A stretch of DNA of 64,000 nucleotides, from assembly GCA_000091205.1 (NCBI GenBank), contig AP006483.2. The stretch is one strand, 5' to 3'. Positions within the stretch are counted from its first letter, which is position 1. Each line of letters starts with the position of its first letter. Below are positions 19,165 through 64,000 of the stretch, in pieces. The DNA is from Cyanidioschyzon merolae (lineage: Eukaryota). The notes under the pieces were generated by a model that was not told the DNA's origin, made no database searches, and saw only the letters and a list, made by a program, of their open reading frames with translations. Both the position numbers and the translations under genes were made by a program.

Positions 19165-20844
19165 GTGGTTCGAGTTTTCCGCTTTGACTCGTTGGAACGA
19201 AGCAACGCCTCCGAGCAAGTCGAGCGCAGTGGATGGTGGAGCTGTTGCGGCCCGAGCCAGCTCGAGATAGAATTCTTTATCCAAGCCGCGCTGAGCATCG
19301 TTTTTCACCCGCGGTGCCACTGGCTTCCACGGATGGTATCCCAGAAAGAGACGTCGCGTGCGGATGAGGTAACTATCACCATTCCAGTAGAGCCTGGTGA
19401 TGCCGAGGCCGGACGAGCGGCTGCTGTGTCGGCAGCTGCCGTGGGGCGCGCTCTCCAGACGGCCTTGCAGCGAAAGGCGTCTGCGGCGCCTCGACTGGCC
19501 CCGCGTGAGGTCTGGCTCTATGACCCTGGCTATACAAGCACGGCCTGCTGTCGCTCTGCAATCACTTTTATTGACGGTGAGAACGGTATTTTGGAGTATC
19601 GCGGGTTTCCAATTGAAGCGCTCGCAACGACCTGCGGCTTCTACACCGTAGCGTACATGCTGCTCGAGGGAACGTTTCCGGCGGACGCAAAGGTGCGCGC
19701 CCAGTTTGCCAAGAGCATTCAACCAGGTCTCGACCTCGACCCTGTTGTCGCAAACGTCGTAGAGAGCTTCCCGCAGGAGGCGCACCCGATGACGGTCTTT
19801 ATGGCTGCGACGGCTGCATTGAGTGCGAGTCGCCCGGCATGGAACCCCGCCCTCGTTCGAGGCGATGGCGGCAGTTTGCGGTTGGTGTATCGCACTCGCG
19901 CTGAACGTCAACGTATCGCACAGGAATGCATTTCGTCACTCACCAGTATCGCTGCAGCGGTTTTCCGTCACATGCGTGGTTGCCCTGTGCGCTTTCCGAA
20001 GAGCACACAGCACCTGCGGGAGCATCCTCTGGATGCCTTTGCCCCTGACGGGTTCGCGCGAGCCTTCCTGCACGCTGCTGACCCCGAAGGCACACTCTGG
20101 CCTGAGCAACGTCATGCATCGGCAGTTTTCGCCGAAACCCTGGATGTCATCTTTGTACTGCATGCAGATCATGAACTGAACTGCTCCACTGCAGCGATGC
20201 GTCACCTGACTTCAGCAGGTTCCGATGTCCTGACCTGTTTGGCAGCTGCGATCGGGGCACTCTATGGACCGTTGCATGGCGGCGCAAATGAGGCAGTTCT
20301 GAACATGCTGGAGGAGATCGGCAGCCCGGAGGCGGTGGAAGCCTTCGTCGCATCCGTGAAGCGTCAGGAACGGAAGCTCATGGGATTTGGTCATCGCGTT
20401 TATCGGAGCTATGATCCACGGGCAAAAATTTTGCGAACGCTAGCACAACAAGTGTTGCGGGAGGCGTCCACGGAAGGTCGTACTGCAAACGGACCGACGA
20501 CTGCGAACGGCGCATCAGACCCGCTGCTGATCATTGCTCAGACGCTGGAGAAGCGAGCACTGGAAGACCCCTACTTTACGGAACGGAAACTCTATCCTAA
20601 CGTTGACTTTTACTCAGGGGTTTTGTATCGCGCGATGGGTTTTCCGAGTGTTTTCTTTACAGTGCTGTTTGCCATTGCGCGCACTGTTGGCTGGCTTGCG
20701 CACTGGATGGAGATGCTCGAACGGGACGCAACGGATGCTGAACGCAAAATCGTACGCCCTCGACAGATCTATATCGGAAAGCGGCGACAACGCATCCCGC
20801 TTGAAGCGGTGGAGAAACGACCTGATCGCCGTTCGAGACTGTGA
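19165..20844 (+). CDS. citrate synthase with C-terminal PTS1-like tripeptide -SRL (candidate peroxisomal/glyoxysomal isoform)
   Basis: 559 aa. The citrate synthase signature 'GFGHRVYRSYDPRA' is present, along with the N-terminal-domain motif 'ITFIDGENGILEYRGFPIEAL'. The ORF ends ...RPDRRSRL*; S-R-L fits the PTS1 consensus [SAC][KRH][LM], and yeast peroxisomal Cit2 ends -SKL. The first ~56 aa are non-homologous; the in-frame Met at 19333 (MVSQKE..., 503 aa) is a likely alternative start. Confidence 0.9.
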   Translation: MVRVFRFDSLERSNASEQVERSGWWSCCGPSQLEIEFFIQAALSIVFHPRCHWLPRMVSQKETSRADEVTITIPVEPGDAEAGRAAAVSAAAVGRALQTALQRKASAAPRLAPREVWLYDPGYTSTACCRSAITFIDGENGILEYRGFPIEALATTCGFYTVAYMLLEGTFPADAKVRAQFAKSIQPGLDLDPVVANVVESFPQEAHPMTVFMAATAALSASRPAWNPALVRGDGGSLRLVYRTRAERQRIAQECISSLTSIAAAVFRHMRGCPVRFPKSTQHLREHPLDAFAPDGFARAFLHAADPEGTLWPEQRHASAVFAETLDVIFVLHADHELNCSTAAMRHLTSAGSDVLTCLAAAIGALYGPLHGGANEAVLNMLEEIGSPEAVEAFVASVKRQERKLMGFGHRVYRSYDPRAKILRTLAQQVLREASTEGRTANGPTTANGASDPLLIIAQTLEKRALEDPYFTERKLYPNVDFYSGVLYRAMGFPSVFFTVLFAIARTVGWLAHWMEMLERDATDAERKIVRPRQIYIGKRRQRIPLEAVEKRPDRRSRL

Positions 20845-45410: not shown

Positions 45411-47096
45411 TTGATCGAGGCAAGCGACTCGAAAGGCACGCAGCGCACGCGGGAACGCTCCAGGATGCCGTCTCCAGCTCTTACGCTGTCGTTCGTATGC
45501 GCATCTGCGTGGCTCTCGGATCGACATAACATCAGCACGTTCTGTTGTGGGCAGACAGGGCGCGCTTCTACGAAGCCTGCGCGTGGACCTCGAGGCCTTG
45601 GTTACCCGCGATCAGTCGGGAACGCGCAACCGCTGAGGTTCATAAACGCCAATCTGCCTGATCCGCGGACCAAGCCCCTGGCGTCGCATCACGAGAGCGT
45701 TCGTTCGGAGGACGAGCTTCGTCTAGAGCCTATACGTCGACTCCAGGGCGATGTCTACCTCCCCGGATCGAAATCGCTCTCCAATAGAGTTCTCTTGCTC
45801 GCGGCCTTGTGCGGTGATGGAGCGGATACGCCCCAGATCCGGGTCGAAAATCTGCTCTTTTCCGATGACGTCTGGGCCATGATTCGAGCGCTGGAATCGC
45901 TGGGGATTCCTGTCGAAGTCGACGAACACAACCGAACAGCAGTCGTCACCGGTTGTGGTGGCCGCATCCCGCGACGTAAGCCCGTCATCGAACTCCATCT
46001 AGGAAATGCTGGAACCGCAATGCGCCCTTTAACTGCCGTATTATGCGCGGTTGCGCCACCTGATCCATCGCTATCGGAACAGATCTTCGTCCTCGACGGT
46101 GTACCGCGTATGCGAGAGCGACCTATCCAGGATTTGGTCGAAGCGCTGCAGCAACTCGGTTGCGATGTGCAATGTGTTTTGGGTACCGGCTGTCCGCCAG
46201 TGCGCATTCGCCGCACCGGGGCGTTTCCAGGCGGTAGAGCTTCGGTGAGCGGCAAGATCAGCAGTCAGTATCTCAGTGCGTTGTTGATGGCGGCCCCGCT
46301 GGCGCGCAATCAAGACGTGGAACTCGAAATCCGCGATACACTCGTCTCTGTGCCGTATGTGGAAATGACCGTGAAGCTCATGCAGAAATTTGGGGTTACC
46401 GTGCACCAAGAGCACCGTGTCCTGCCTGATGGGCGCGAATCGCGCCGCTACCGGGTTCCGGCGCGGCAGGAATACCGACCGCCAACCCATCACTGCATCA
46501 TGGTTGAGGGCGATGCTTCCTCGGCTTCGTACTTCCTCGCAGGTGCCGCCATTACCGGTGGCGATGTACAAGTTCATGGATGTGGATCCGCTTCAGTTCA
46601 AGGTGATGTGCGCTTCGCCCAGATTCTTGAAAAAATGGGGGCCAAAGTGTCCTGGTCTCCGGACTCGATTCGCCTTCAACGCGAACCGGGACAAGTGCTT
46701 CACGGCGTCGATGTGGACTGCGGCGATATCCCGGATGCAGCCATGACGCTTGCCGTGGTCGCACTCTTTGCCAGAGGCCGTACTGCGATTCGCAACGTTT
46801 ACAACTGGCGAGTGAAAGAAACAGAACGCATGCGGGCAATTGTGACGGAATTGGGCAAACTCGGTGCCCGGGTCGAGGAAGGCCACGACTACTGTATCAT
46901 TGACCCGCCGCAGCCGGGCGCGCTTCACGCAAACGTGTCCATCGCGACCTACGACGACCATCGGATGGCGATGGCATTCGCGCTCGTGGCATGCGGGGGC
47001 GTCCCGGTGCGTATCCAAAACCCGAGCTGCGTCCGAAAGACGTTTCCTGACTATTTCCAAGTACTACGATCGGTATCCGTTTTTGAAAGCACGTGA
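45411..47096 (+). CDS. 3-phosphoshikimate 1-carboxyvinyltransferase (EPSP synthase), monofunctional, with ~100-aa N-terminal presequence
   Basis: 561 aa. EPSPS signature 1 is '[17 protein letters not shown]' and signature 2 is '[13 protein letters not shown]'. Also conserved are '[18 protein letters not shown]' and a C-terminal '[25 protein letters not shown]' (RxKExxR). The mature domain starts near '[20 protein letters not shown]'. The preceding ~100 aa are Ser/Arg-rich and non-homologous, consistent with an organellar (plastid-type) transit peptide. Confidence 0.9.
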
Positions 47097-47861: not shown

Positions 47862-49994
47862 TCAGGAGGACTGGTTTTTGAGATGCTGCAGCGCATCGGC
47901 AGCGATCTGTTCCTCCCAAGAGGCCGTGCCATAGGCTCTGCTTGTTCGAGCGATACCGGGCACGTTTTGCTCACCAGCAATGTCATTCGCATCTGCTCGT
48001 TTGCCGGCAGGCAGGCGCAAGATGGCGCCGTTCCGGAGCCCGGCATTCACCGCGGAAAAGGATGCTATGTTTGCTGCCGTAGCAGCGGCTCGAGGCGGCG
48101 GTGTCGACGGCGTCGACAGCAGCTGCGGCCTGCCCCGCAGTGTCGGGTACTGACGGTACATTGCCTCGCTCAGATCGATGGCGCGCGGGTTATTCGCGGT
48201 TGCTTCCGGGTAGTCGGTCATGGGCGGGTAGAAAAACGCCGGATTCCGAACATCGGCGACGTTCATGAACGTCTGAGGCGCTCCGCGGACGCCCAGCCTC
48301 ATGCCCGTCGTGGCGGTTGTAGCGGTGATGGCGGCGGACTCTTGCGGCGCTGTTAGCGCACACGTCTTGCATGGCGACACAAGCGATGCCATACCAACAA
48401 CCGTGCCGGCAGACGCGTACGACGGCGAGGCGCATAAAGCGCCCGGCGAGTGACCCGAATCCAGTCGGCGACGTTGGCCGGACAAGACCACTCTTGACGC
48501 GTTCCGCTTGGACATCCTGGTCATCGACGATGCGCGTCCGATGCCAGCAACACCATTGCGCTGTCGAGCACGCTGTTCCGGTAGGGACGCCCGATCAGCC
48601 AAACTCGCTGGAGCCGATAATGATGATGGTGATGGTGATGGACTCGCCTCGGAACTGCGATGCGACTGCGGCGAATGCCGGTGCCATGCTTCCATATTCG
48701 ACGGGGAATCATTCGAGACTTCATGCTCGGATCGCTCAGACTCGCATCCGGTTCGCAGGTTGCCACCGGATGGCGACGCCACAGGTGACCTGTGCGGCGT
48801 CCCCGTGTCCGTTGCCATAAAGCTGTTGCGCAACTTGGCCGTCGGAGTTCGTGGCGACGACTCCACTGTGGAACCGTTGGATGTTTGAGCATATGACGTT
48901 CGCCTGCTCGTCTCAGAGCGCTTCGCACGATGTGACTTGCTGGAACCCGTTGACTGCGCATTCGACTCGCCTGGTGTTCGTTTCCGTAACGATTGGACCT
49001 TTTCTAAAATGCCCTCGAGTCCAATGTTCCGCACGCTTTCCTCAGAAAGCAGTCCGGATTCTACCACGCCAACGAGAGAGCTCTTGGTAGGCGTGCCGCT
49101 TGCACCCTTCTGGTGCGAGAACGATATACCAAGCTCAGCGAGCACGAGCCGCTCGCGCGCCTGACTGAGCTCAGCGCTTCCCTCAAAGTTGCGACAGTTC
49201 GAACATCGGCAGGATGCGCTGCAGTACACGCCATTCTGGAAACACTCGCAGTATTTTTTGAGACAGAGGCTGCGCAAGCACGAGCATCCCTTAATATGCT
49301 GCGCGTGACGTTGCGTCGTCGTTCCGGTCGTTCTCGGTTGCGTGCTCGTGCTGGAGGCCTCCTCATTCGGAACCTGTTCCTGGACAGGTTCCGAAGAATC
49401 CTCCGGTGCAACGTCCGCGGACTTGGCGGCAGCAGCAGTAGCAGCACAATTTTGTCTCGATGCCGTATCCTTGCTGCTGGTATCGTATTCGAGGGTAACC
49501 ACCTTGGAACGGAACGCGTGCGGGTTACGTTCAAGCGAGGTCCGGATCGCGTTCTGTCGTAGCGTGTCGTATGCAGGCAGATTCAAACAGTTTGTGCAGT
49601 GACAGCCGTTGCAGTACGTTCCAGCAGCAAAACAGTCGCAATAAAGTTTCAAGCACTTGGAGTTTTTGCAGTTGCACGGTTTCCGCGGCCGCGTGACACT
49701 CCCGCCCTCCAGAGCGTTACTCGAGAGTCCCGGGGACGCCACCGCGCTCTTGCGCAGGGCGCTGAGCAGAAGCGCTTCACCAGAACCTTTGGATGGCGTT
49801 TGTGGTGAGGTACTGGGCGTGCTCGCCGGTGCAGCACGAGAAACGTCCGCCGGCGAGGCGAACACCGGCTGCGACGCTCGGCGTTCAACATCACCGTCGA
49901 CCTCTCGTGACAAAGCGTCACCCGGCTCTTGTCCAAAGCTCCGCTTCTTCTCCTCTTCAACAGGTACTCGATCCGAATCAGTCATCAGGAACAC
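47862..49994 (-). CDS. CXC/CRC-domain protein (Tesmin/TSO1/LIN54 family; DREAM/MuvB-type DNA-binding protein)
   Basis: 710 aa with two Cys-rich CXC modules, 'CNCKNSKCLKLYCDCFAAGTYCNGCHCTNCLN' and 'CSCLRSLCLKKYCECFQNGVYCSASCRCSNCRN' (both C-x-C-x4-C-x3-YC-x-C-x6-C-x3-C-x-C-x2-C). They are separated by a short linker, as in LIN54/TSO1. The rest is Ser/Pro/Ala-rich low complexity. Confidence 0.75.
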   Translation of the reverse strand: MFLMTDSDRVPVEEEKKRSFGQEPGDALSREVDGDVERRASQPVFASPADVSRAAPASTPSTSPQTPSKGSGEALLLSALRKSAVASPGLSSNALEGGSVTRPRKPCNCKNSKCLKLYCDCFAAGTYCNGCHCTNCLNLPAYDTLRQNAIRTSLERNPHAFRSKVVTLEYDTSSKDTASRQNCAATAAAAKSADVAPEDSSEPVQEQVPNEEASSTSTQPRTTGTTTQRHAQHIKGCSCLRSLCLKKYCECFQNGVYCSASCRCSNCRNFEGSAELSQARERLVLAELGISFSHQKGASGTPTKSSLVGVVESGLLSEESVRNIGLEGILEKVQSLRKRTPGESNAQSTGSSKSHRAKRSETSRRTSYAQTSNGSTVESSPRTPTAKLRNSFMATDTGTPHRSPVASPSGGNLRTGCESERSEHEVSNDSPSNMEAWHRHSPQSHRSSEASPSPSPSSLSAPASLADRASLPEQRARQRNGVAGIGRASSMTRMSKRNASRVVLSGQRRRLDSGHSPGALCASPSYASAGTVVGMASLVSPCKTCALTAPQESAAITATTATTGMRLGVRGAPQTFMNVADVRNPAFFYPPMTDYPEATANNPRAIDLSEAMYRQYPTLRGRPQLLSTPSTPPPRAAATAANIASFSAVNAGLRNGAILRLPAGKRADANDIAGEQNVPGIARTSRAYGTASWEEQIAADALQHLKNQSS

Positions 49995-53321: not shown

Positions 53322-55832
53322 TCAGAGCGGATGCGCTGATCCCGCTGGACCCGCTTCAGAGCTGGGCAGCGGCGACGACGACGATGACGCTTCTGCCTCT
53401 TTTTCAGACTGCCCAGAGGTGATCCGCGCACGGCGCTGGCGCTGCGCATTCGCCAAACGACGAAGCGCAACCAGCTCCGCAGTTACCGATTCCGCCTCCA
53501 AATTGCGGCCCCAGACGAGCGCATACGAGCTGCTCGGACTCATCCCACAAACGTAGAAGCAGGGCGGAGGCGTAAAGCCGTTAAAACCACCAGCCAGACT
53601 CAGCGTATAGGCACCCATGCCAGTCCACCAGAGCCAGTCACCAATTTGCAGCGGTTGCGGCAGGATGACGTCGCGGCGCACCACGTCGAGGGAATCACAT
53701 GTCGGCCCGAATATCGTGCATCGCACCGGATGCAAGAGGGACGCATCCGTAGCACAGGGTGGAATGGGTTCCGGAAGTAGCAACCTCGGCGTGAACGTTA
53801 CACCGAGCAGCGCTGCATCCTTGAAGCTTCCGTACATACCATCTCCAATATAATAGTCCATACCGCGTTTCAGTGGCGTTGGCGTTGGCGTATCCTTCCC
53901 GTTGACACCGATATGCTTGGGACGTGCGCTGATCACCTGCGTCGCCAAGATCTGTGCTGCACCGATAAAATAGCGGCCTGGCTCGGCGATCACATCGACA
54001 CCGCTGGAGGCCGGAAACAACTCCTCCAGGGCCGGTCCCAAACGAGCAGCAATTTCGGCAAACGAGATCGGCGCGTCACCATCATGGGCTGGGAATCCGC
54101 CACCGATATCGAGAATCGTGAGCGGTTCTCCCAGAATCACCTCTGCCATATCGAAGACTTTGCGAGCATCCTGAAGCGCTTGATAGTAGGCGGCAAAGGA
54201 GCGCGCCCCGCTGCCCACATGGAACGCAACGCCGACGACGCGGACGCCGAGCTCGCGAGCCACGCGTAGCAGCTCCGGCACATCCTCCAGCGACGCTCCA
54301 TACTTGCTGCTCAGGGGGCACAAGGAGTCTTGATCATGCGTTGCGATACGCAGAAGCATCCGCGGCACCGGAATCATGTGTTGGTTATCGGTTCCCAGCG
54401 TACCAGCCGCCGTGCTGCTGCAGCTGCTGCTGCTGCTGGGCTCGTTCGACGGTCCAGGTGCACCTGTCGATCCGCTCGCGTCTGCCACGGGGCCAAATTG
54501 ACTCCCCGCGTGACCAATCGCGATCCCGGCTACTTTGCAGGCGGCCCAGTAGACGTCCCTAACCTTGTACAACTCGAGTTCGTTGTCGAATGTCATTAGG
54601 GACACACCGTGCTTCTCCAGTGCGTAGCGTATTTGTGGAGGTGCCTTACACGGGTTAGCGTATACAATACGCCGGGGGTCAATCCCTGAGCCGCCGAACC
54701 CTACACCGCCGACCGGGAATCCTTTCTCCTTGCCCGACGCCGCCAGCGCTGCGCAGGTATCCATCACCAGATCAATTTCGGTCCGGGACGCACAGTCGAA
54801 GCCGCATCCTAGAGCCGCCAGTACCGCGACAACACAGCGATCGGGGTTGCATTTCACTGCGTAGTGAGGGCGCACGCGCGGCAAGAGTCGCCGAAATTGC
54901 CAATACTGGCGAGCGACATGTCCCAGATCAACCACATAAAATGCCGACAAATCCGGAGACAAACGCGCGTACTGGGCATGGCTTGCGGTCGGTTTCCCGG
55001 TAATGATCGCTCGGGCATAGGCAGCCATCGCTGCCGCGGACGGTGAGATGGTATGGTCTCCACCGATGCGGTGGTTGTCGTGCCCTGAATCGGTTTCCAG
55101 GCCCGTGTCAGACTGCATAATCATTTCCGCCTCTTCTGTCCAGGCATCGGGTTCGCTATTGCCGGCAACCGCAGACGTTCCGGGCGCCGAGCAGGTGTCG
55201 CCGTCCGGCTGGGGCTTGGCTCCGATTCCATCCGTCGTATCTGGATCGAAAGCAGAATGTAGCTCACGAAAGAGTGCCGGCTCTGGGAGCACCAGACGAT
55301 CAATGGCAACGCCGGGCAGCGACGTCATAATCCTTTCCAGAAAATCTTCCTCGGATGGATCCAGGATCTGCAGCAGTTGCTGTTGTTGTTGTTGCTGCTG
55401 TTGCCGCCGCCTCAAAAGTTTCTGTACGAGAACATTTTGCTGTCGAAGACTTTGGGCGATCTGCTCGGATACCGAACGATGAATTCCACTCCCCAGCTTG
55501 CTTTTTCGGCGACTCCCTGGAGACACCGGTAGCGTGTGCTCTACACCATAACCACGAAATGAATACGCCGTGCCATGCACTGGCGCCGAGGACTCGCGCG
55601 TCAGCGACGCTGGCAACGAGCGCGCGACCGACACTTGGCAGTCCCTGTCGCAGCTGCCTGTAAGTGATTCGGCCCAGGGCGTTCGCTTGCCTCTCTGGCA
55701 CTCGACAACGCTGGTTCCCGAAGCTGTCACCATGCTCGATGCCGGAACCCCGTCGTCGGCCACTTCGTCGCCACTGTGCTCCGCTGAAAAGCGCATACGC
55801 AGCGACTTCGCTCGCGAGTCAGATATTTGCAT
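53322..55832 (-). CDS. ODC: ornithine decarboxylase (group IV PLP-dependent decarboxylase) with ~270-330-aa N-terminal extension containing a polyQ tract
   Basis: 836 aa. The Orn/DAP/Arg decarboxylase family-2 PLP site is 'YAVKCNPDRCVVAVLAALGCGFDC' (Lys in 'AVKCN'). The Gly-rich 'ILDIGGGFPA' and the ODC substrate/dimer-interface motif 'EPGRYFIGAA' are present. The extension carries (Q)12 'RRRQQQQQQQQQQLLQ'. In-frame Mets at residues 237/239 and 269 (ATG at plus 55026..55028) would give a ~570-aa protein. An internal Ser/Gly-rich insertion and an ~80-aa Ser-rich C-terminal tail are also present. Confidence 0.85.
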   Translation of the reverse strand: MQISDSRAKSLRMRFSAEHSGDEVADDGVPASSMVTASGTSVVECQRGKRTPWAESLTGSCDRDCQVSVARSLPASLTRESSAPVHGTAYSFRGYGVEHTLPVSPGSRRKSKLGSGIHRSVSEQIAQSLRQQNVLVQKLLRRRQQQQQQQQQLLQILDPSEEDFLERIMTSLPGVAIDRLVLPEPALFRELHSAFDPDTTDGIGAKPQPDGDTCSAPGTSAVAGNSEPDAWTEEAEMIMQSDTGLETDSGHDNHRIGGDHTISPSAAAMAAYARAIITGKPTASHAQYARLSPDLSAFYVVDLGHVARQYWQFRRLLPRVRPHYAVKCNPDRCVVAVLAALGCGFDCASRTEIDLVMDTCAALAASGKEKGFPVGGVGFGGSGIDPRRIVYANPCKAPPQIRYALEKHGVSLMTFDNELELYKVRDVYWAACKVAGIAIGHAGSQFGPVADASGSTGAPGPSNEPSSSSSCSSTAAGTLGTDNQHMIPVPRMLLRIATHDQDSLCPLSSKYGASLEDVPELLRVARELGVRVVGVAFHVGSGARSFAAYYQALQDARKVFDMAEVILGEPLTILDIGGGFPAHDGDAPISFAEIAARLGPALEELFPASSGVDVIAEPGRYFIGAAQILATQVISARPKHIGVNGKDTPTPTPLKRGMDYYIGDGMYGSFKDAALLGVTFTPRLLLPEPIPPCATDASLLHPVRCTIFGPTCDSLDVVRRDVILPQPLQIGDWLWWTGMGAYTLSLAGGFNGFTPPPCFYVCGMSPSSSYALVWGRNLEAESVTAELVALRRLANAQRQRRARITSGQSEKEAEASSSSSPLPSSEAGPAGSAHPL

Positions 55833-58848: not shown

Positions 58849-60242
58849 CGCTGTGACGCAGTCTCAACGGGAAATGATCGCAGTGATGACGCAGATCCGA
58901 GTCCAAGACCCGTCTCCATTCAGACAGCCAGGAACAATGTCATGTTTTTATGCTCCTCAATCGATCGGTGCGAATTTCGGCATCCTCGCATTGCCTTGAA
59001 CCAGAGCGATCGAAAACTGGAAAGAAGCCCGCTTTTATCATGCCACTTGAAAGCAAAAGAGAAGCGTACAGGCATGCATCTCGGCATTGAACAATGATTC
59101 CTGTCATTTCACGAATCCTCGTTCGACACCATGTCGAATCATCTGGATCCCGAGGACGCACCGAATTCCAGCAGCTCAGCCTCAATGGAACAACTTTTGA
59201 AAACCCGACCGAGTATTCAGAAACGATCTATGAATCCGTGAGCCCTCATTGCTGCATTCGCAAGTCGAGGATGTTCATCCAAAAAGTACATCCGAACAGT
59301 ATCGAAAGCCAGCAACAGAGTGCCAAGTTTCGTGTTCCATTCTCACCCGCTACAGATAAAGAGCATATTCGCTTCTATCCAGTCATGGATCATACCATAT
59401 TTCCGCTGGATGAACCTATCGCTCGTATCTCCGTTGGCAAGACGCGAATCCAGACACAAACACCCACCCACTCGCAAGAGCACACACGCGGGCCTCAGGT
59501 TGAACGCCGCCACCGGGCCGCAGCGCTCGCAAGCCATAGACCACGTCGGACAATCCCAGCGTTTCGAAAGCCTGGTCGTCGTCGTCGTCTTGAGAGCGCC
59601 TTTTGGTCTATGTGTGTTGAAGAGAGTTCCTTTTGACCACTACAGCGCCTCAGTATGCCTGTATACCGACCGCTCTTTCGCTGCGCGTTGAGTGTGTTCC
59701 TCTGCCGCAACTCGTACCGAACACTGGGGCGTGCTGTAGGATTCTGGCGAGCCAACGGAACATCGTGGCTTCTGCGAGGTTCCCGTCTGGGTATCGCACT
59801 CTTGAGCAGTTGGCTTCTTCTTTTATTTATTGGTGAGTTCCTAGCGTCACTCGTGGAGTTGTCTGTGGACGTTCTTACCCGTATTGGTGTTGATGCTAGG
59901 CGCAGCACGGAGAGCGAAGCCCCGCCACGTCCTTCGCAGCACGCTCTGGGGGCCGCTTTCCTGGCTCGTGCCGCTCGAATCGTTCGACTGACCGCTCCCT
60001 TCGGCTTGGTTCAAAAGTTCAGACTCGCCTTTGGAACGAGACTGGTGTTGTGTTGGGGCACCAAGCCCTCACACCCGTGGGCTGAGCAAGGCAAGCGAGA
60101 GCTTCGTCCTGCCGCAGTAGACCCGGGCGCGCTGCTGGGGCAAGGCGTTGCTCGTCCGAGGGCCTCGAATACACCTTTGGACTGGGTACCGCACCTGCAA
60201 TGTTGCCATGATTTGCTACCCGAACCGGAACGACGATGCCCG

Positions 60243-63200
60243 ATGAAACGGTGTTTCGGCATCGGCGTCTATGTACCTGCTCTGGAGTTGGTCTATGGCG
60301 CTTCCGCTGCCGAGACAAGTGCTACGAGCAACGCAAGCGAGTCGAGCGCTGACCCGGTCGTTGTGACCATTCGCGTTGAACAGCTCTATGTTCCAGTCAG
60401 CGCGCTCGTTATTCTCCTCGGTCGCTATCTGTACGGGCGTCTTCAGCGGCACCACAGAGGCGCGTCTTCGTTCGGGCGCCGCGAAACGCACCCTAGTTCC
60501 TTTTGTAGAGTGTGGAAACAGCGGCTGGAGCATGCACTGGTCAAGATGCTGTATGGGATCCTATCTGGCATCCGAGCAGCCCAGGTGGCAACGGTGCTGG
60601 TTTCCGCGAGCAGTCCGGACCAGGGGGTCTTCACACTGCAGCGCTTAGAATGCGAACTTGATCGTAACACCCCAGCTGTGCAGTTTCATGGCCGTTATGG
60701 GCTCTATGCCAAACCCAAGCGATCCGGTGCTGAAGATCATCAAGAAAGCTTTGCCCGAGCATTCTTGCGAGCGCTCCGTGGTACCCAGTCTGAGCAGCAG
60801 TATGCCGGTATCGGAGTTTTTGGCTGCGTTCACCTCTGCCGTAGCCTCGAGGAGCGCAACACGCGCTGTCATCAGAACGCCGCCATCATTGCCTGGTACG
60901 AGACACCCGGGCAGTTGGGTTGTGGAGCCGCGCTGCTCGGCTCAACCCACGGTGTCTACCGATCACGTCCACCGGGTCGAGATGCAGACAAGGAAAGCAT
61001 CGACTCGCCGCCGCACAGCAGTGTTGCGATAGCCACACCGCCGACCTCGGCGCGAAGGAATGCCGACCTTCAGTTCGAAATGGCAGGGATCGGCCTGGAA
61101 CTGAGCTTCGAGCTCCTCGTTGAACTGGCACAACGCTACACCCAGCAGTGGTTACGCAGACAAGCACGAAAAACAGAACAGAATCGGGTCGGAAGGTCGC
61201 GTTCGGATTCTGGTGCGAAACTGTTGCAGAAACTCTCGCACTTGGCGATCTCGCTGCATTTGCGCAACGTCAAACTTGACTTTATTAGCAAGCGTGATGA
61301 GGTGCGTCTCGAAGCATCCGAGCTGGAACTTTTTCTGGATCAAAGCAAGGCAGGTGCATCCGCCGTAGGGGCATTCATGGTCCCCGAGGCTCGTCCGTTT
61401 GCCAAGTCCCTGCACATCCGCCTGGATCAGGCCGCTGTACAGCTGTTTCACAGGCTAGTGACACCTTCGATAACAACGAAGGATGACGGTGCCTTGAACG
61501 CCACGCTAACGACAGTGCTGCGCTGCGGGATGATATTCGGATCCCTGGAGGAGGCTGTGCTCGAGCGTGTCGAGCTGCAGGTCGCACAACACCCTCTGTT
61601 GGTGATTGCTCAGCTGGCAGTGGTGCAGACTTTGCGACAGGTGCAGGTACAGCGTCCTCGCTTGGACTGGTGCCCCGACGCCCAAGATGGACTCGAAGCG
61701 ATCTGGCATCGTTGGCGAACCTTATTACCGCAGTTGGATGAGCACTTGCAGCGGAAATCTCAGAAGCGCAGCGAACTGGCGCCCACACGAATTCCAGAGG
61801 ATTCCATCTCGTTGTGGCAACTCAGCGTTGTGGGCGAGGCCAGCGCCTGGGGTCGCTTTCCTCACGGCAATAACTCGGGTATGGTATTCGATGCCTTGCA
61901 GATGCCGCTGCAGCGGCAGCCGTGGCGCATACGTGTCGAACGCCTATCCTGGTTTGTGGATGACCGCTGTATGGGGCATGCAGCCCAGACGTCTTTCTGT
62001 GTGCACTGGGGCAAGGAGAAGCGTCTAATTGAGGCCCACACTGCATTGCTTCGCTTCCAGATGCCCTATGGATTTCGTTTCCTACAGCAATACAACCTGT
62101 TTTTGGCGCATTTGCGGCTCTACTTTCGATATCGCAAGACGTTTGGCCGCCATACCGGCACACGCTCCGCCCGAGCTGCTCCAGGCACGGCGACTTGGTC
62201 GGGTACGCGGAAGTCTATTTTTCCCGACGTGGACATTCGAGCCGATGAGGCGGAGTTCGTGCTCCGCGATCACGAACTGGAGCACTGGTTCAACGAACGC
62301 TTCCTGGTGATGGTGGACGAGGCGCAGGAGCGGGTTCTTCGAGAGCGGCTCGCACACTCCATGTTGGAGGCGAATCGACCCAGGCAGCAGGAGATATTGG
62401 CGGATGAACTGGAGCACCAGCACGCAACCCTCTATGTCAGAAGAATGCAGCAATGGCAGCAGCAGAGACTTGAACTCGAGCGGGCCGCAGCACTGCACCA
62501 GCAAGTGGTCGCTCCTTGGATGCCGGACGCTGCTTTCCAACAGTTGTTTGTGGCTAGAGCGATGAACGTACGTTTCCGTCTGATCCGCTCGCGACTGAGT
62601 CGCGCTGAAGAGAACCGCGAAGCAGCAGCGTTCGCGGCGCGTATGGACGCCACATTCGGTGAAGGTGCAGTTTCCAGCCAGGCGAATACCGAGACCGCTT
62701 GGAGCTCGCGTTCCAAGCAAGCCTCGGAAACTGCACCATCTGATGAACCGGCGAAACCGGAAGCAGGCAAAGGATGCACCCGCATTGCCGGAGAAGCTGA
62801 ACTGGTGCACCGCAGCGCAGCTGCCTCGTCGTCTGGGGCACCCACGATGTCCACATATAGCACTGCTTCTGCTGCTGTTGCTCCTGGAGCAGTGCAACCG
62901 CCACCGTCACCGCCACCACCTTCAACACAACGAGAACATCTCTTGGACCCGAACCAGTGGTACACGCTCGGTCGCCGACGCCTCGTCATTGATATCGATG
63001 GTGAACTGGTCGTCCATTTGCGTCATTTCCCCTTTCCGGTGGTGCAGTTGGAGAAGGGACTCCGCCTCCGGGGAACCGTTGCGCTCGGTGAACTGCACGT
63101 TTGCGAGCCGTTCGCTGCTGAGCGAGACCTTCAGCTCAGTCAAAGCTGCTGGGTGCGCTACCGGCGAGCCATCTCCCCGAATCGCTGGTACTGCGACTGG

Positions 63201-64000
63201 GACCTCATGAGCGGTGGACGCTTTCGGCTGAACTGGTCCCGTGCGCTGATTTCTACCCTCAAGGATATGATGGATGGCTTTCAGGGCTTTGCGGGTGCAG
63301 GCAAAGACCCGAGTCCGCTGCTCAACTGGTGGAATCAACTGAGACTGTTGATTCACGGCCGTTGGCGACTGCACTGCCCCGAGGGCTTTCAGATTGTCCT
63401 GTTGAGCAGCGCGCCTTACAACCCTGAGTATGACGAGCGGATCGAGTGCTGCCTAACGGGACCTCGTACGGGGTTATGTATCGATCGCCGACTGGGAACA
63501 GTGGAACTTGAAGCGGACGCCTGGAAGTTGCTGTTCCATGTAGCGACATCGAGCAACCAAGGAGCACCGCTCCACGCCCCGAGTCGACTGTGCGGTGCTG
63601 AACCCATTCACTTGCTTTTCCGGGTCGATGCGGAGCCCGCGCTTGGTGTTCCCGTCTCTGCGTACCCACATCCACTGGGGTATCCTCGAGGTGTCCAGGG
63701 GCCGGGAGAACGCCTGCCTCCCGCTGTCCCGTCGACGTTGGTACCGCTGACTGCTGCCTACCAGGGGAGTTGCGCTCGACTCGCAGCGCGAGAAAACGTT
63801 ACGTTGGGCACTTTGCCTGCGAGCGATGCCTCCAGTGACGCAGCAGGCGCTAGGTGTTTCACGGATTCAAAGCAGCTGATAATGGAGCCGGATGCGGAAA
63901 CGGTTACCCCGTCGCATACTCGGGAATCCGCCGGTGTTCACGCAGATAGCACGCTCGCGGATACCGATACGAAAACAAGCGAACATGCCTCTTCTACGGC
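60243..64000 (+). CDS. 5' part of a very large protein of unknown function (>1250 aa, continues beyond the window end)
   Basis: The frame with codons starting at positions divisible by 3 has a TAG at 59841..59843 and no further stop through 64000 (>1385 codons, traced codon by codon). The first ATG in the frame is 60243 (MKRCFGIGVYVPALELVYGA...). It is absent from the supplied ORF table only because it has no stop inside the window. Composition is amphipathic and repetitive, with segments such as 'LHLRNVKLDFISKRDEVRLEASELELFLDQS' and 'NWWNQLRLLIHGRWRLHCPEGFQIVLLSSAPYNPEYDER'. Function is not assignable by eye. Confidence 0.75.
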   Translation, partial: MKRCFGIGVYVPALELVYGASAAETSATSNASESSADPVVVTIRVEQLYVPVSALVILLGRYLYGRLQRHHRGASSFGRRETHPSSFCRVWKQRLEHALVKMLYGILSGIRAAQVATVLVSASSPDQGVFTLQRLECELDRNTPAVQFHGRYGLYAKPKRSGAEDHQESFARAFLRALRGTQSEQQYAGIGVFGCVHLCRSLEERNTRCHQNAAIIAWYETPGQLGCGAALLGSTHGVYRSRPPGRDADKESIDSPPHSSVAIATPPTSARRNADLQFEMAGIGLELSFELLVELAQRYTQQWLRRQARKTEQNRVGRSRSDSGAKLLQKLSHLAISLHLRNVKLDFISKRDEVRLEASELELFLDQSKAGASAVGAFMVPEARPFAKSLHIRLDQAAVQLFHRLVTPSITTKDDGALNATLTTVLRCGMIFGSLEEAVLERVELQVAQHPLLVIAQLAVVQTLRQVQVQRPRLDWCPDAQDGLEAIWHRWRTLLPQLDEHLQRKSQKRSELAPTRIPEDSISLWQLSVVGEASAWGRFPHGNNSGMVFDALQMPLQRQPWRIRVERLSWFVDDRCMGHAAQTSFCVHWGKEKRLIEAHTALLRFQMPYGFRFLQQYNLFLAHLRLYFRYRKTFGRHTGTRSARAAPGTATWSGTRKSIFPDVDIRADEAEFVLRDHELEHWFNERFLVMVDEAQERVLRERLAHSMLEANRPRQQEILADELEHQHATLYVRRMQQWQQQRLELERAAALHQQVVAPWMPDAAFQQLFVARAMNVRFRLIRSRLSRAEENREAAAFAARMDATFGEGAVSSQANTETAWSSRSKQASETAPSDEPAKPEAGKGCTRIAGEAELVHRSAAASSSGAPTMSTYSTASAAVAPGAVQPPPSPPPPSTQREHLLDPNQWYTLGRRRLVIDIDGELVVHLRHFPFPVVQLEKGLRLRGTVALGELHVCEPFAAERDLQLSQSCWVRYRRAISPNRWYCDWDLMSGGRFRLNWSRALISTLKDMMDGFQGFAGAGKDPSPLLNWWNQLRLLIHGRWRLHCPEGFQIVLLSSAPYNPEYDERIECCLTGPRTGLCIDRRLGTVELEADAWKLLFHVATSSNQGAPLHAPSRLCGAEPIHLLFRVDAEPALGVPVSAYPHPLGYPRGVQGPGERLPPAVPSTLVPLTAAYQGSCARLAARENVTLGTLPASDASSDAAGARCFTDSKQLIMEPDAETVTPSHTRESAGVHADSTLADTDTKTSEHASST

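What the first reader, a model, noticed from the sequence alone, without database searches (positions are those of the whole stretch)
59844..64000. Giant stop-free reading frame missed by the ORF track runs off the 3' end of the window
From the TAG at 59841-59843 to position 64000 one plus-strand frame has no stop codon, which I verified manually over >1385 codons. In ~58% GC DNA a chance stop-free run of this length is effectively impossible, so this is the 5' part of a very large gene (>1250 aa from the first ATG at 60243). It is not in the provided table because the table only reports ORFs that terminate inside the window. The dozen short Met-initiated ORFs listed on all frames between 60000 and 64000 are out-of-frame or antisense artefacts of this gene. 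The protein is long and amphipathic-repetitive, with Trp-containing blocks ('WYCDWDLMSGGRFRLNW', 'LLNWWNQLRLLIHGRW'). That is the general look of giant bridge-like lipid-transfer proteins (Hob/SABRE/KIAA0100/Fmp27, VPS13-like), but I cannot see a diagnostic motif such as GFWDK. The first 130 codons after the upstream stop contain no Met, so the true start may be in an upstream exon or the gene may begin at 60243.
Basis: seen in the sequence. Interest (0 to 1): 0.7.

Follow-up and report, generated by a model that had tools for sequence, protein, structure and literature searches.

The report
Red-alga-like BLTP2/Hobbit lipid-bridge gene, 5' half
The long stop-free frame is real and is the first half of an intact, intron-free gene of about 2,890 codons for a divergent member of the well-known BLTP2/Hobbit/Fmp27/SABRE family of ER-anchored bridge-like lipid-transfer proteins, so it is an ordinary gene that the ORF table missed only because it runs off the window.

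Summary
The stop-free + frame runs 59637..64000 (1454 codons). The real upstream stop is TGA at 59634-36, and an in-frame ATG sits at 59655.

The family guess is right. Pfam PF10344 (Hobbit/FMP27/BLTP2) scores 57.7 bits against a cut-off of 24.5. A 2608-aa orthologue aligns from residue 5 onward, which fixes the start at 59655, not 60243 and not an upstream exon.

Three Yellowstone metagenome contigs, 99.2-99.4% identical in DNA, carry the gene to its stop as one ORF of 2885-2890 aa. A profile built from validated BLTP2s matches it collinearly over aa 661-2756.

Verdict: a new, divergent member of a known family. Lipid transfer itself is inferred. Interest is low.

The parts
59634..59636 (+).
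   Evidence: The TGA and the ATG context are conserved in the near-identical contigs L006-L008.
59655..64000 (+). Partial coding sequence: codons 1-1448 of a gene of about 2,885-2,890 codons for a BLTP2/Hobbit-family protein. It is cut by the window end.
   Evidence: No stop in the frame. Pfam PF10344 at 57.7 bits, E 4.5e-16. Orthologue P0122 aligns aa 5-1370 to its residues 3-1338 at 48% identity. Divergence by codon position is pos2 < pos1 < pos3 in every segment, including codons 1-196. The gene is extended to its stop in L007 (6719-15391, 2890 aa) and L008 (2885 aa).
59787..59855 (+). Predicted N-terminal transmembrane anchor, aa 45-67 (LGIALLSSWLLLLFIGEFLASLV)
   Evidence: Highest 19-residue Kyte-Doolittle hydropathy of the whole 1448 aa, 2.1. 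It lies inside a predicted helix at aa 38-86, pLDDT 56-73 by 10-residue block. An equivalent hydrophobic segment lies in the first 70 or so residues of most homologues. An LLxxGE[F/T] signature is shared with P0122 and with two Galdieria BLTP2 sequences.
60243..60245 (+). It is internal Met197.
   Evidence: Residues 5-196 align with the orthologue.
61635..62651 (+). First block with detectable BLTP2 homology, aa 661-999. It includes a textbook RBG unit: five long strands at aa 728-803, preceded by a short strand at aa 721-726, then a helix at aa 809-834. A long helical hairpin follows at aa 874-948.
   Evidence: hmmsearch with a profile of 13 validated BLTP2s: domain 1, 78.3 bits, HMM positions 545-896. 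Weak Pfam stretch aa 851-931 to profile 945-1030. AF2 model with pLDDT mostly 80-95 here.
62667..62939 (+). Low-complexity Ser/Ala/Pro-rich linker, aa 1005-1095, predicted disordered and poorly conserved
   Evidence: pLDDT below 50 for model residues 306-382. Only 29% identity to the orthologue here, with gaps.
62943..63425 (+). 'GFWDK-motif' RBG unit, aa 1097-1257. This is the most conserved block of the family.
   Evidence: Pfam best stretch aa 1117-1256 to profile 1137-1275 of 2372. Domain 2 of the custom profile, 90.3 bits. 69% identity to P0122 over aa 1096-1300. Alignment A1.
63306..63359 (+). Motif DPSPLLNWWNQLRLLIHG, aa 1218-1235. It is the degenerate counterpart of the family's DPSPxxGWWDKLRLxxHG. 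The five-residue motif N-W-W-N-Q is at 63324-63338.
   Evidence: Regex and alignment across 22-25 homologues. S1220, R1230 and H1234 are invariant. The near-invariant Asp is Asn here, and Lys is Gln.

Best explanation
Window 59655-64000 encodes the N-terminal half (aa 1-1448) of a single-exon gene of about 2,890 codons. Its product is a divergent orthologue of BLTP2 (Hobbit in flies, Fmp27/Hob1 and Ypr117w/Hob2 in yeast, SABRE/KIP/APT1 in plants, KIAA0100 in humans).

How it most likely works, by homology:
- The hydrophobic helix at aa 45-67 anchors the N-terminus in the ER membrane.
- The rest of the chain folds into a series of repeating beta-groove units, each a five-strand meander plus a helix. 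Together they form a long rod with a hydrophobic channel.
- The rod spans a membrane contact site. In the organisms studied this is ER to plasma membrane.
- Lipids move in bulk along the groove.

What is shown here: the gene's extent, start, intactness and conservation; family homology; the hydrophobic N-terminal segment; the predicted RBG fold of aa 700-1330.

What is inferred: ER anchoring, the partner membrane and lipid transfer itself.

The host is an intron-poor, plastid-bearing eukaryote found in Yellowstone hot-spring metagenomes. It is probably a cyanidiophycean-type red alga; that too is an inference.
For: Frame and start:
- 1454 stop-free codons, chance about 1e-11 or less.
- ATG at 59655, preceded by an in-frame TGA.
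- The 2608-aa orthologue P0122 aligns from query residue 5 to its residue 3 and on through residue 1370, at 48% identity.
- P0122 is itself one uninterrupted ORF in NCBI GCA_041825655.1 and JGI 3300061725.
- Substitutions follow pos2 < pos1 < pos3 in all segments.

Full length:
- Contigs L006-L008 are 99.2-99.4% identical to window 52.9-64.0 kb.
- They give one ORF of 2890 or 2885 aa with the same start.
- Ga0078972 is a Yellowstone metagenome (PMC8986864).

Family:
- Pfam PF10344 scores 57.7 bits for the window part and 73.8 bits for the full length, against a cut-off of 24.5. No other Pfam family hits.
- An exhaustive HMMER search returns 21 hits. The 10 looked up include Galdieria, Rhodosorus and Pyropia proteins, two of which UniRef names FMP27/BLTP2/Hobbit proteins; the first protein search had found a Porphyra protein with the same UniRef name. 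Three that were scanned score 150-182 bits on PF10344.
- hhalign of the clade profile against the red-algal BLTP2 profile gives Prob 100, E 1e-42, over 1316 columns.
- hmmsearch finds six collinear pieces, aa 661-2756 to HMM 545-2132 of 2258, 255.8 bits. They include the conserved C-terminal block.

Motif: DPSPLLNWWNQLRLLIHG aligns to DPSPxxGWWDKLRLxxHG.

Anchor:
- aa 45-67 is the hydropathy maximum.
- Levine 2022 (PMC7613979) states that Hobbit starts with a single transmembrane helix that integrates into the ER.

Fold:
- The AF2 model of aa 700-1448 has pLDDT 67 and pTM 0.67, with 425 residues at or above 70. It shows strand meanders followed by helices.
- Foldseek against the PDB: top hit LPD-3/BLTP1 9cap_A, E 7.5e-8.
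- For the aa 1-1000 model, the six best hits are LPD-3, TamB (two entries), Vps13 and Atg2 (two entries).

Function in model organisms: bulk ER to plasma-membrane lipid transport (abstracts of PMC12406788 and PMC11844476).
Against: - The N-terminal 650 or so residues have no statistically significant similarity to other BLTP2s (hhalign Prob 2.4%). They were modelled at low confidence, pLDDT below 50 over aa 73-635. The first RBG units are therefore assumed, not shown.
- The name-giving motif has lost its near-invariant Asp and its Lys: WWNQ instead of W[W/F]DK.
- The Pfam score is far below that of other red-algal members (58-74 bits against 150-182).
- Alternating hydrophobicity in the predicted strands is only weakly above shuffles (mean z 0.67). 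I could not measure groove hydrophobicity on the model coordinates.
- There are no transcript data, no localisation data and no lipid-transfer data for this organism.
- The best structural match is BLTP1, not BLTP2. No BLTP2 structure appeared among the solved-structure matches, so fold evidence supports the RBG superfamily rather than the BLTP2 family.
Confidence: 0.9

Rival explanations
1. It is a member of another bridge-like lipid-transfer family rather than BLTP2. Candidates are BLTP1/Tweek/Csf1, which is also anchored by an N-terminal transmembrane helix, or VPS13, ATG2 or BLTP3.
For: The best solved-structure match is LPD-3, a BLTP1. Vps13 and Atg2 N-terminal fragments also appear among the matches. 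The N-terminal 650 residues cannot be assigned to any family by sequence.
Against: Pfam reports only PF10344 Hobbit. There is no Chorein_N, VPS13, ATG2 or Csf1 family even at E up to 1. Every named or Pfam-scanned sequence relative found is a BLTP2. Homology is collinear with BLTP2 over about 2,100 residues, including the GFWDK unit and the C-terminal block. The size of 2.9 kaa fits BLTP2, not BLTP1 at about 5 kaa (PMC7613979). The structural hit reflects the shared RBG fold, and no BLTP2 structure appeared among the solved-structure matches.
Confidence: 0.03
2. The gene either starts at the ATG at 60243, or its true start lies in an upstream exon spliced onto the open frame.
For: No transcript data are available. 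A 180-codon ATG ORF (59094-59636) lies in the same frame just upstream, separated only by one TGA.
Against: The premise was a misread stop. An in-frame ATG exists at 59655. Residues 5-196 align with the orthologue, whose own ORF starts 2 residues earlier, and they evolve with a coding pattern. The family's expected N-terminal hydrophobic anchor (aa 45-67) would be lost with a start at 60243. The upstream ORF has no Pfam hit. The TGA is conserved in three further strains. All large genes in the window, and both orthologous loci, are single ORFs.
Confidence: 0.03
3. It is a BLTP2 descendant whose role has shifted in this lineage, for example to another contact site such as ER to plastid, or to altered regulation. 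On this view the family's standard ER to plasma-membrane mechanism does not describe it.
For: The conserved Asp and Lys of the motif are replaced in both members of this clade. The N-terminal third has diverged beyond detection. Long low-complexity inserts make it about 300-700 aa longer than most relatives. A review names plant BLTP2 orthologues as untested candidates at plastid contact sites (PMC12096540).
Against: Nothing here positively indicates a different site. The anchor, the RBG fold, the GFWDK unit and the C-terminal block are all retained. Motif degeneracy is common in validated red-algal members, which read PWFDS, AWWDQ and MSFDM. Levine 2022 notes that RBG domains can lose detectable sequence homology without changing secondary structure or function (PMC7613979).
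Confidence: 0.08
4. It is a chance or non-functional open frame: an orphan, a pseudogene or an assembly artefact.
For: None beyond the absence of expression data. The window-versus-L007 comparison shows 11 nonsynonymous against 3 synonymous differences, but the numbers are small.
Against: The chance probability is about 1e-11 or less. The gene is intact over 2,885-2,890 codons in independent contigs. It has been conserved with a 2608-aa orthologue under a coding substitution pattern. dN/dS is about 0.3-0.4 in the two larger within-species comparisons.
Confidence: 0.01

Closest known systems
BLTP2 family (Drosophila Hobbit; yeast Fmp27/Hob1 and Ypr117w/Hob2; plant SABRE/KIP/APT1; human BLTP2/KIAA0100); Pfam PF10344
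   Same: Curated profile hit above threshold. Giant size. An N-terminal hydrophobic anchor and nothing else transmembrane-like in the first 1448 aa. A predicted repeating beta-groove fold. A mid-protein GFWDK unit at the collinear position: profile 1137-1275 of 2372, compared with human aa 1028-1160 of about 2,200 (PMC5686863). A conserved C-terminal block in the full-length copies.
   Different: Weak profile score. The N-terminal 650 or so aa are not recognisably homologous. The motif reads NWWNQ instead of G[F/W]WDK. Long disordered Ser/Ala/Pro/Gln-rich inserts bring it to about 2,890 aa. No functional data exist.
P0122, an unnamed 2608-aa 'hypothetical protein' of NCBI assembly GCA_041825655.1 (contig JBBELT010001264.1) and JGI metagenome 3300061725
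   Same: This is the true orthologue. It is 48% identical over aa 5-1370, has the same start, the same anchor and an identical motif block GKDPSPLLNWWNQLR, and is a single ORF.
   Different: About 280 aa shorter. Identity is only 29-33% in the N-terminal 196 aa, the linker and the region after aa 1300. It comes from a different species; the citrate synthase next door in the window is about 70% identical to the closest metagenome version.
Galdieria sulphuraria Gasu_33330 (XP_005705847.1, UniRef M2XGY5) and G. phlegrea G1576: annotated red-algal FMP27/BLTP2/Hobbit proteins
   Same: They are the closest named relatives. They are collinear from about aa 650 to the C-terminus (hhalign Prob 100). 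They share Gln in place of the motif's Lys (WWDQ against WWNQ). Two Galdieria sequences (G. phlegrea P0123 and the longer G. sulphuraria entry GJD05855.1, P0145) also share an LLxxGE[F/T] anchor signature, which is absent from the shorter Gasu_33330 entry P0124.
   Different: Only 24-30% identity, even in the best block. They are 2,196-2,261 aa long and score 181-182 bits on Pfam against 58-74 here.
C. elegans LPD-3 (BLTP1), cryo-EM structure 9cap; also the Vps13 N-terminal fragment 6cbc, Atg2 6a9e and bacterial TamB 9xdd
   Same: These are the best structural matches of both models. They share the RBG or AsmA-like beta-groove architecture.
   Different: Different families, with 6-10% sequence identity and no sequence-level hit. 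The similarity is at superfamily, that is fold, level only.

Membership tests
BLTP2 / Hobbit / Fmp27 / SABRE (Pfam PF10344) | Significant match to the curated family profile, above its gathering score | tested here: met
   57.7 bits, E 4.5e-16 for the window part. 73.8 bits, E 6.1e-21 for the full-length copy. The cut-off is 24.5 and it is the only Pfam family hit.
BLTP2 / Hobbit / Fmp27 / SABRE (Pfam PF10344) | Collinear homology with validated members along the protein, not just one domain | tested here: met
   Six collinear HMM pieces, aa 661-2756 to HMM 545-2132 of 2258, 255.8 bits. hhalign Prob 100, E 1e-42 over 1316 columns. The N-terminal 650 or so aa are not significant.
BLTP2 / Hobbit / Fmp27 / SABRE (Pfam PF10344) | A single N-terminal transmembrane helix as the ER anchor (Levine 2022, PMC7613979) | tested here: met
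   aa 45-67 has hydropathy 2.1, the maximum of the 1448 aa. It lies in a predicted helix. A hydrophobic segment is found near the N-terminus of the homologues. This is prediction only; membrane insertion was not tested.
BLTP2 / Hobbit / Fmp27 / SABRE (Pfam PF10344) | GFWDK-motif RBG unit in mid-protein | tested here: met
   The unit is present at the collinear position, aa 1097-1257. The literal pentapeptide is degenerate: NWWNQ, against GWWDK or PFWDK in many homologues. Pfam-validated or source-annotated red-algal members are degenerate too, reading PWFDS, AWWDQ and MSFDM. The flanking DPSP...LR...HG is conserved.
BLTP2 / Hobbit / Fmp27 / SABRE (Pfam PF10344) | Repeating beta-groove fold: five-strand meander plus helix units forming a rod | tested here: met
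BLTP2 / Hobbit / Fmp27 / SABRE (Pfam PF10344) | Size class of about 2,000-3,200 aa, with the conserved C-terminal block | tested here: met
   2,885-2,890 aa in L007 and L008. The C-terminal block at aa 2679-2756 scores 50.4 bits against HMM 2054-2132. This part lies outside the window.
BLTP2 / Hobbit / Fmp27 / SABRE (Pfam PF10344) | Localisation at ER to plasma-membrane contact sites, and lipid binding and transfer | not testable with these tools
   Inferred only from studies in yeast, fly and human cells (PMC12406788 and PMC11844476).
VPS13 / ATG2 / BLTP3 (chorein-type RBG proteins) | N-terminal Chorein_N domain and family-specific Pfam domains | tested here: not met
   No such Pfam hit, even at E up to 1, on the whole protein or on five overlapping pieces. 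The N-terminus is a hydrophobic anchor instead.
BLTP1 / Tweek / Csf1 | Family profile match; size of about 3,000-5,000 aa; a transmembrane helix followed by an amphipathic helix | tested here: not met
   No BLTP1 or Csf1 Pfam hit. All sequence relatives that were named or Pfam-scanned are BLTP2. The LPD-3 structural match is fold-level only, at 7-9% identity.

The most novel reading that the evidence does not exclude
In this hot-spring algal lineage BLTP2 may have been remodelled. The N-terminal third has diverged beyond recognition. The near-invariant Asp and the Lys of the GFWDK motif are replaced (NWWNQ). There are large disordered inserts. Together these could mark a change of partner membrane or regulation, for example an ER to plastid bridge in a cell with a very reduced endomembrane system. 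That would give a simple, intron-free system for asking what the GFWDK unit does.
Probability: 0.08. Interest if true: 0.45.

Novelty: new member of a known kind. Interest (0 to 1): 0.2.

Why it matters
Mostly as a correction and an annotation. A 64-kb window's largest gene was invisible to the ORF table purely because it runs off the end. It can now be annotated with a start at 59655, an N-terminal anchor, a GFWDK unit and a full length of about 2,890 aa taken from sister contigs.

Biologically it adds a very divergent BLTP2 from an uncultured or unnamed thermoacidophile-type alga. It shows which residues of the GFWDK block survive extreme divergence: S, R and H of DPSP...LR...HG are invariant. 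The name-giving D and K are not preserved.

That is mildly useful for people dissecting BLTP2. It does not change what is known about the family.

Tried and rejected
1. Word-index homologue searches. The whole protein found only one Porphyra fragment. A 22-sequence alignment of the GFWDK unit found nothing, although P0122 and the others are in that collection. The exhaustive HMMER search was what worked.
2. Exact look-ups of two neighbouring window proteins, to extend the contig: not on record. The degenerate-pattern metagenome scan worked instead.
3. PDB sequence search: no relative, only a chance hit at E 0.66.
4. The AFDB Foldseek library was not available, so no direct fold comparison with AlphaFold BLTP2 models was possible.
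5. Literal GFWDK-type regular expressions found nothing in any red-algal homologue. A relaxed pattern plus an alignment located the motif.
6. Profile-profile test of the N-terminal 700 aa against other BLTP2 N-termini: not significant (Prob 2.4%).
7. AF2 model of aa 1-1000: low confidence before aa 640.
8. Even/odd hydropathy alternation in the predicted strands: only weak (mean z 0.67).
9. Within-species dN/dS: too few differences to be informative for the window part.
10. Naming the organism. Literature searches for the assembly and run accessions found nothing. Citrate synthase relatives gave no clear named clade: 70% to unnamed metagenome contigs, and 43-51% to further unnamed sequences, glaucophytes, red algae, chytrids and other eukaryotes.
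11. tRNA and Rfam scans of the window: nothing.
12. Rejected ideas: a trypanosomatid origin, because genes lie on both strands at short range and a plastid-type EPSPS is present; VPS13-like identity; an upstream exon.


Full report
**1. The observation**

Translating 59841-64000 on the + strand gives 1386 codons without a stop. A scan of all six frames shows that the frame is open for longer than reported: 59637..64000, which is 1454 codons. The next longest stop-free run in the window is 839 codons.

The true in-frame stop is TGA at 59634-59636. It is followed by an in-frame ATG at 59655-59657.

In the same stretch the other two + frames carry 36 and 45 stops. The probability of 1454 stop-free codons, multiplied by 128,000 possible positions, is about 2e-19 from base composition. 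It is about 2e-11 from the window's own stop-trinucleotide frequency.

The frame is missing from ORF lists because the tool does not list ORFs that run off the source.

**2. What it is: sequence evidence**

Pfam reports a single family for the 1448-aa translation. This is PF10344, Hobbit/FMP27/BLTP2, at E 4.5e-16 and 57.7 bits against a curated cut-off of 24.5. The best stretch is aa 1117-1256 to profile positions 1137-1275 of 2372. A weaker, collinear stretch runs from aa 851-931 to positions 945-1030.

The word-indexed protein search found only a Porphyra umbilicalis fragment that UniRef names a FMP27/BLTP2/Hobbit protein.

An exhaustive HMMER search of 1.84 billion cluster representatives with aa 249-1448 found 21 proteins.
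- The best is P0122, 2608 aa and 1181 bits.
- Among the ten looked up, those that carry names are red-algal BLTP2s: Galdieria sulphuraria Gasu_33330, G. phlegrea, Rhodosorus marinus and Pyropia yezoensis. The other hits are unnamed eukaryotic sequences.
- Three that were scanned score 150-182 bits on PF10344.

**3. The start of the gene**

BLASTP of the window protein against P0122 gives one alignment from query residue 5 to subject residue 3, running through residue 1370 at 48% identity. The orthologue's own ORF therefore starts at the equivalent of 59655.

P0122 is a single 7,827-nt ORF on NCBI GCA_041825655.1 contig JBBELT010001264.1 and on a JGI metagenome contig. Threading codons onto the protein alignment gives divergence in the order pos2 < pos1 < pos3 in every segment. 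For codons 1-196 the values are 0.41, 0.55 and 0.67.

The upstream TGA and the ATG context are conserved in three further strains. The 180-codon ORF just upstream in the same frame has no Pfam hit. All other large genes in the window are single ORFs.

**4. The 3' end**

A degenerate-pattern scan of JGI metagenome contigs with aa 1095-1448 found three loci, L006-L008. They are 99.2-99.4% identical in DNA to the window over 7.6-11.1 kb. One comes from Ga0078972, a Yellowstone metagenome (PMC8986864).

In L007 and L008 the same ATG opens one uninterrupted ORF of 2890 and 2885 aa. The window thus holds almost exactly the first half. The full-length protein scores 73.8 bits on PF10344.

**5. Homology along the length**

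hhalign of the clade profile (the window protein, P0122 and its close relatives) against a profile of 13 other BLTP2s gives Prob 100, E 1.2e-42, over 1316 columns. It aligns P0122 residues 647-2496 to Galdieria residues 522-2094 of 2196.

An HMM of those 13 proteins hits the full-length L007 protein in six collinear pieces, aa 661-2756 to HMM 545-2132 of 2258, at 255.8 bits. These include the C-terminal block at aa 2679-2756, which scores 50.4 bits.

The N-terminal 650 or so residues are not significantly similar to other BLTP2 N-termini (Prob 2.4%). Levine 2022 notes that individual RBG domains can lose detectable homology without losing structure (PMC7613979).

**6. The "missing" motif**

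No red-algal homologue carries a literal GFWDK. A relaxed pattern and an alignment of the conserved unit from 22 proteins show the following.
- The family column reads DPSPP(V/I/L)GWWDKLRLxxHG in many members, and PFWDK in one.
- Red algae read PWFDS, AWWDQ, TWWDQ or MSFDM there.
- The window protein and P0122 read DPSPLLNWWNQLRLLIHG, at aa 1218-1235 (63306-63359).
- Ser1220, Arg1230 and His1234 are invariant.
- The near-invariant Asp is Asn here, and the Lys is Gln.

In human KIAA0100 the SMART/Pfam "GFWDK domain" is at aa 1028-1160 (PMC5686863), which is consistent with the mid-protein position here.

**7. Anchor and fold**

The most hydrophobic 19-residue window of the 1448 aa lies at aa 45-67 (LGIALLSSWLLLLFIGEFLASLV, hydropathy 2.1). 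The homologues have an equivalent segment near their N-termini. An LLxxGE[F/T] signature is shared with P0122 and with two Galdieria sequences. Levine 2022 states that Hobbit begins with a single transmembrane helix that inserts in the ER.

AlphaFold2 results:
- aa 1-1000, 18-sequence alignment: mean pLDDT 48.6. Only the helix at aa 38-86 and the region aa 640-1000 are usable.
- aa 700-1448, 28 sequences: mean pLDDT 67.1, pTM 0.67, with 425 residues at or above 70.
- That second model shows strand meanders each followed by a helix, for example strands at aa 721-803 then a helix at aa 809-834. It also shows a helical hairpin at aa 874-948, a disordered linker at aa 1005-1081, and further meanders through about aa 1323.

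Structure comparison:
- Foldseek against the PDB gives one significant hit, LPD-3/BLTP1 9cap_A (E 7.5e-8, 636 columns). Vps13, TamB and Atg2 follow.
- For the aa 1-1000 model, the six best Foldseek hits are LPD-3, TamB (two entries), Vps13 and Atg2 (two entries).

This supports the repeating beta-groove fold. It is superfamily-level evidence, not family-level. The AFDB library that holds BLTP2 models was unavailable. Even/odd hydropathy alternation in the predicted strands is only weakly above shuffles.

**8. Mechanism**

By homology, the protein is anchored in the ER by aa 45-67. It forms a rod of RBG units with a hydrophobic groove that bridges to another membrane and conducts bulk lipid flow. 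In yeast and human cells that other membrane is the plasma membrane (abstracts of PMC12406788 and PMC11844476).

Shown here: the gene structure, conservation, family homology, the hydrophobic N-terminal segment, and the predicted RBG fold for aa 700-1330.

Inferred: ER insertion, the partner membrane and lipid transfer.

**9. Context**

The window carries, on both strands, single-ORF genes for:
- NAD(P)HX dehydratase
- mRNA capping enzyme
- citrate synthase
- thiolase
- a photolyase or cryptochrome
- a TFIID-like protein
- a TPR protein
- an EPSP synthase with an N-terminal extension of about 100 aa
- a CXC/tesmin protein
- an 836-aa ornithine decarboxylase

No tRNA or Rfam RNA was found. The citrate synthase is 99% identical to a Logan contig (SRR29605864) and 70% identical to unnamed metagenome and NCBI contigs. 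It is 43-51% identical to everything with a name.

Four things point to a cyanidiophycean-type red alga: the intron-poor layout, GC of about 56-59%, the Yellowstone origin of the sister contigs, and the Galdieria-like motif and anchor details. I mark that as inference, because no tool named the organism.

**10. Comparison, novelty and verdict**

The protein meets every testable defining feature of BLTP2: the profile hit, collinearity, the N-terminal anchor, the GFWDK unit, the RBG fold, and the size with its C-terminal block. It fails the tests for the chorein-type families and for BLTP1.

It differs from typical members in four ways: its weak profile score, its unrecognisable N-terminal third, the NWWNQ motif, and its large disordered inserts.

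It is a new, divergent member of a known family in an unnamed organism, and it is not a new kind of system. Interest is low, at about 0.2. The one mildly novel possibility is lineage-specific remodelling with a changed contact site. It is neither supported nor excluded, and I put its probability at about 0.08.

Noticed in passing
window 59094-59636 (+): A 180-codon ATG-initiated ORF lies in the same frame as the giant gene, separated from it by a single TGA (59634-36) and 18 nt. It has no Pfam hit and reads like non-coding sequence. The same ORF and the same stop are present in the sister contig L007 (6164-6700). It is probably 5' UTR or intergenic DNA, but read-through or a recent stop cannot be excluded without transcripts.
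   Followed up: partly
window 53322-55832 (-): The ornithine decarboxylase is unusually long at 836 aa. The PLP-decarboxylase domains start only near aa 300. Before them is an N-terminal extension containing a poly-Gln run (QQQQQQQQQQ). A Ser-rich low-complexity insert splits the N-terminal domain into two Pfam stretches.
   Followed up: no
window 45411-47096 (+): The EPSP synthase domain begins at about aa 106 of the ORF, so there is an N-terminal extension of about 100 aa. This is consistent with a plastid transit peptide. It is the main hint that the window comes from a plastid-bearing eukaryote.
   Followed up: partly
window 19165-20844 (+); loci L001-L003: The citrate synthase is of the peroxisomal/glyoxysomal type. 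It is 99% identical to a 1.6-kb Logan contig (SRR29605864), 70% identical to unnamed JGI and NCBI metagenome contigs, and at most 51% identical to all other relatives (≤48% to anything with an organism name). The source organism is therefore not represented by a named, annotated genome in these collections.
   Followed up: partly
L007 6719-15391 vs L008 6719-15376: There is a length polymorphism between strains, 2890 against 2885 aa. It comes from a Gly-run indel in the C-terminal low-complexity region (GGGGGGGGDGAHAH against GGGGGAHAH). In codons 1-1448 the window differs from L007 by 11 nonsynonymous and only 3 synonymous changes, though the numbers are small.
   Followed up: partly
L004 8996-18107 (downstream of orthologue P0122): Downstream of the orthologous gene in the related species lie a 999-aa ABC1-kinase/beta-lactamase-domain protein and a Ski2/Mtr4-type DEAD/DSHCT helicase. 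In L007 the 5.7 kb after the stop hold only a 320-aa ORF with no Pfam hit. Downstream synteny was not established.
   Followed up: no
tool behaviour, vs 21 and 26: The word-indexed protein search missed a 48%-identical, 2608-aa orthologue. It also missed every member of a 22-sequence query alignment, although those proteins are cluster representatives in the same collection. Negative results from that tool are therefore unreliable for low-complexity-rich eukaryotic giants.
   Followed up: yes
window 47862-49994 (-): A 710-aa protein carries two Tesmin/TSO1-like CXC domains near its N-terminus. The rest is long Ser/Thr/Ala/Pro-rich low-complexity sequence. The same pattern of conserved cores embedded in disordered expansions appears in the BLTP2 and in the ornithine decarboxylase of this genome.
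   Followed up: no
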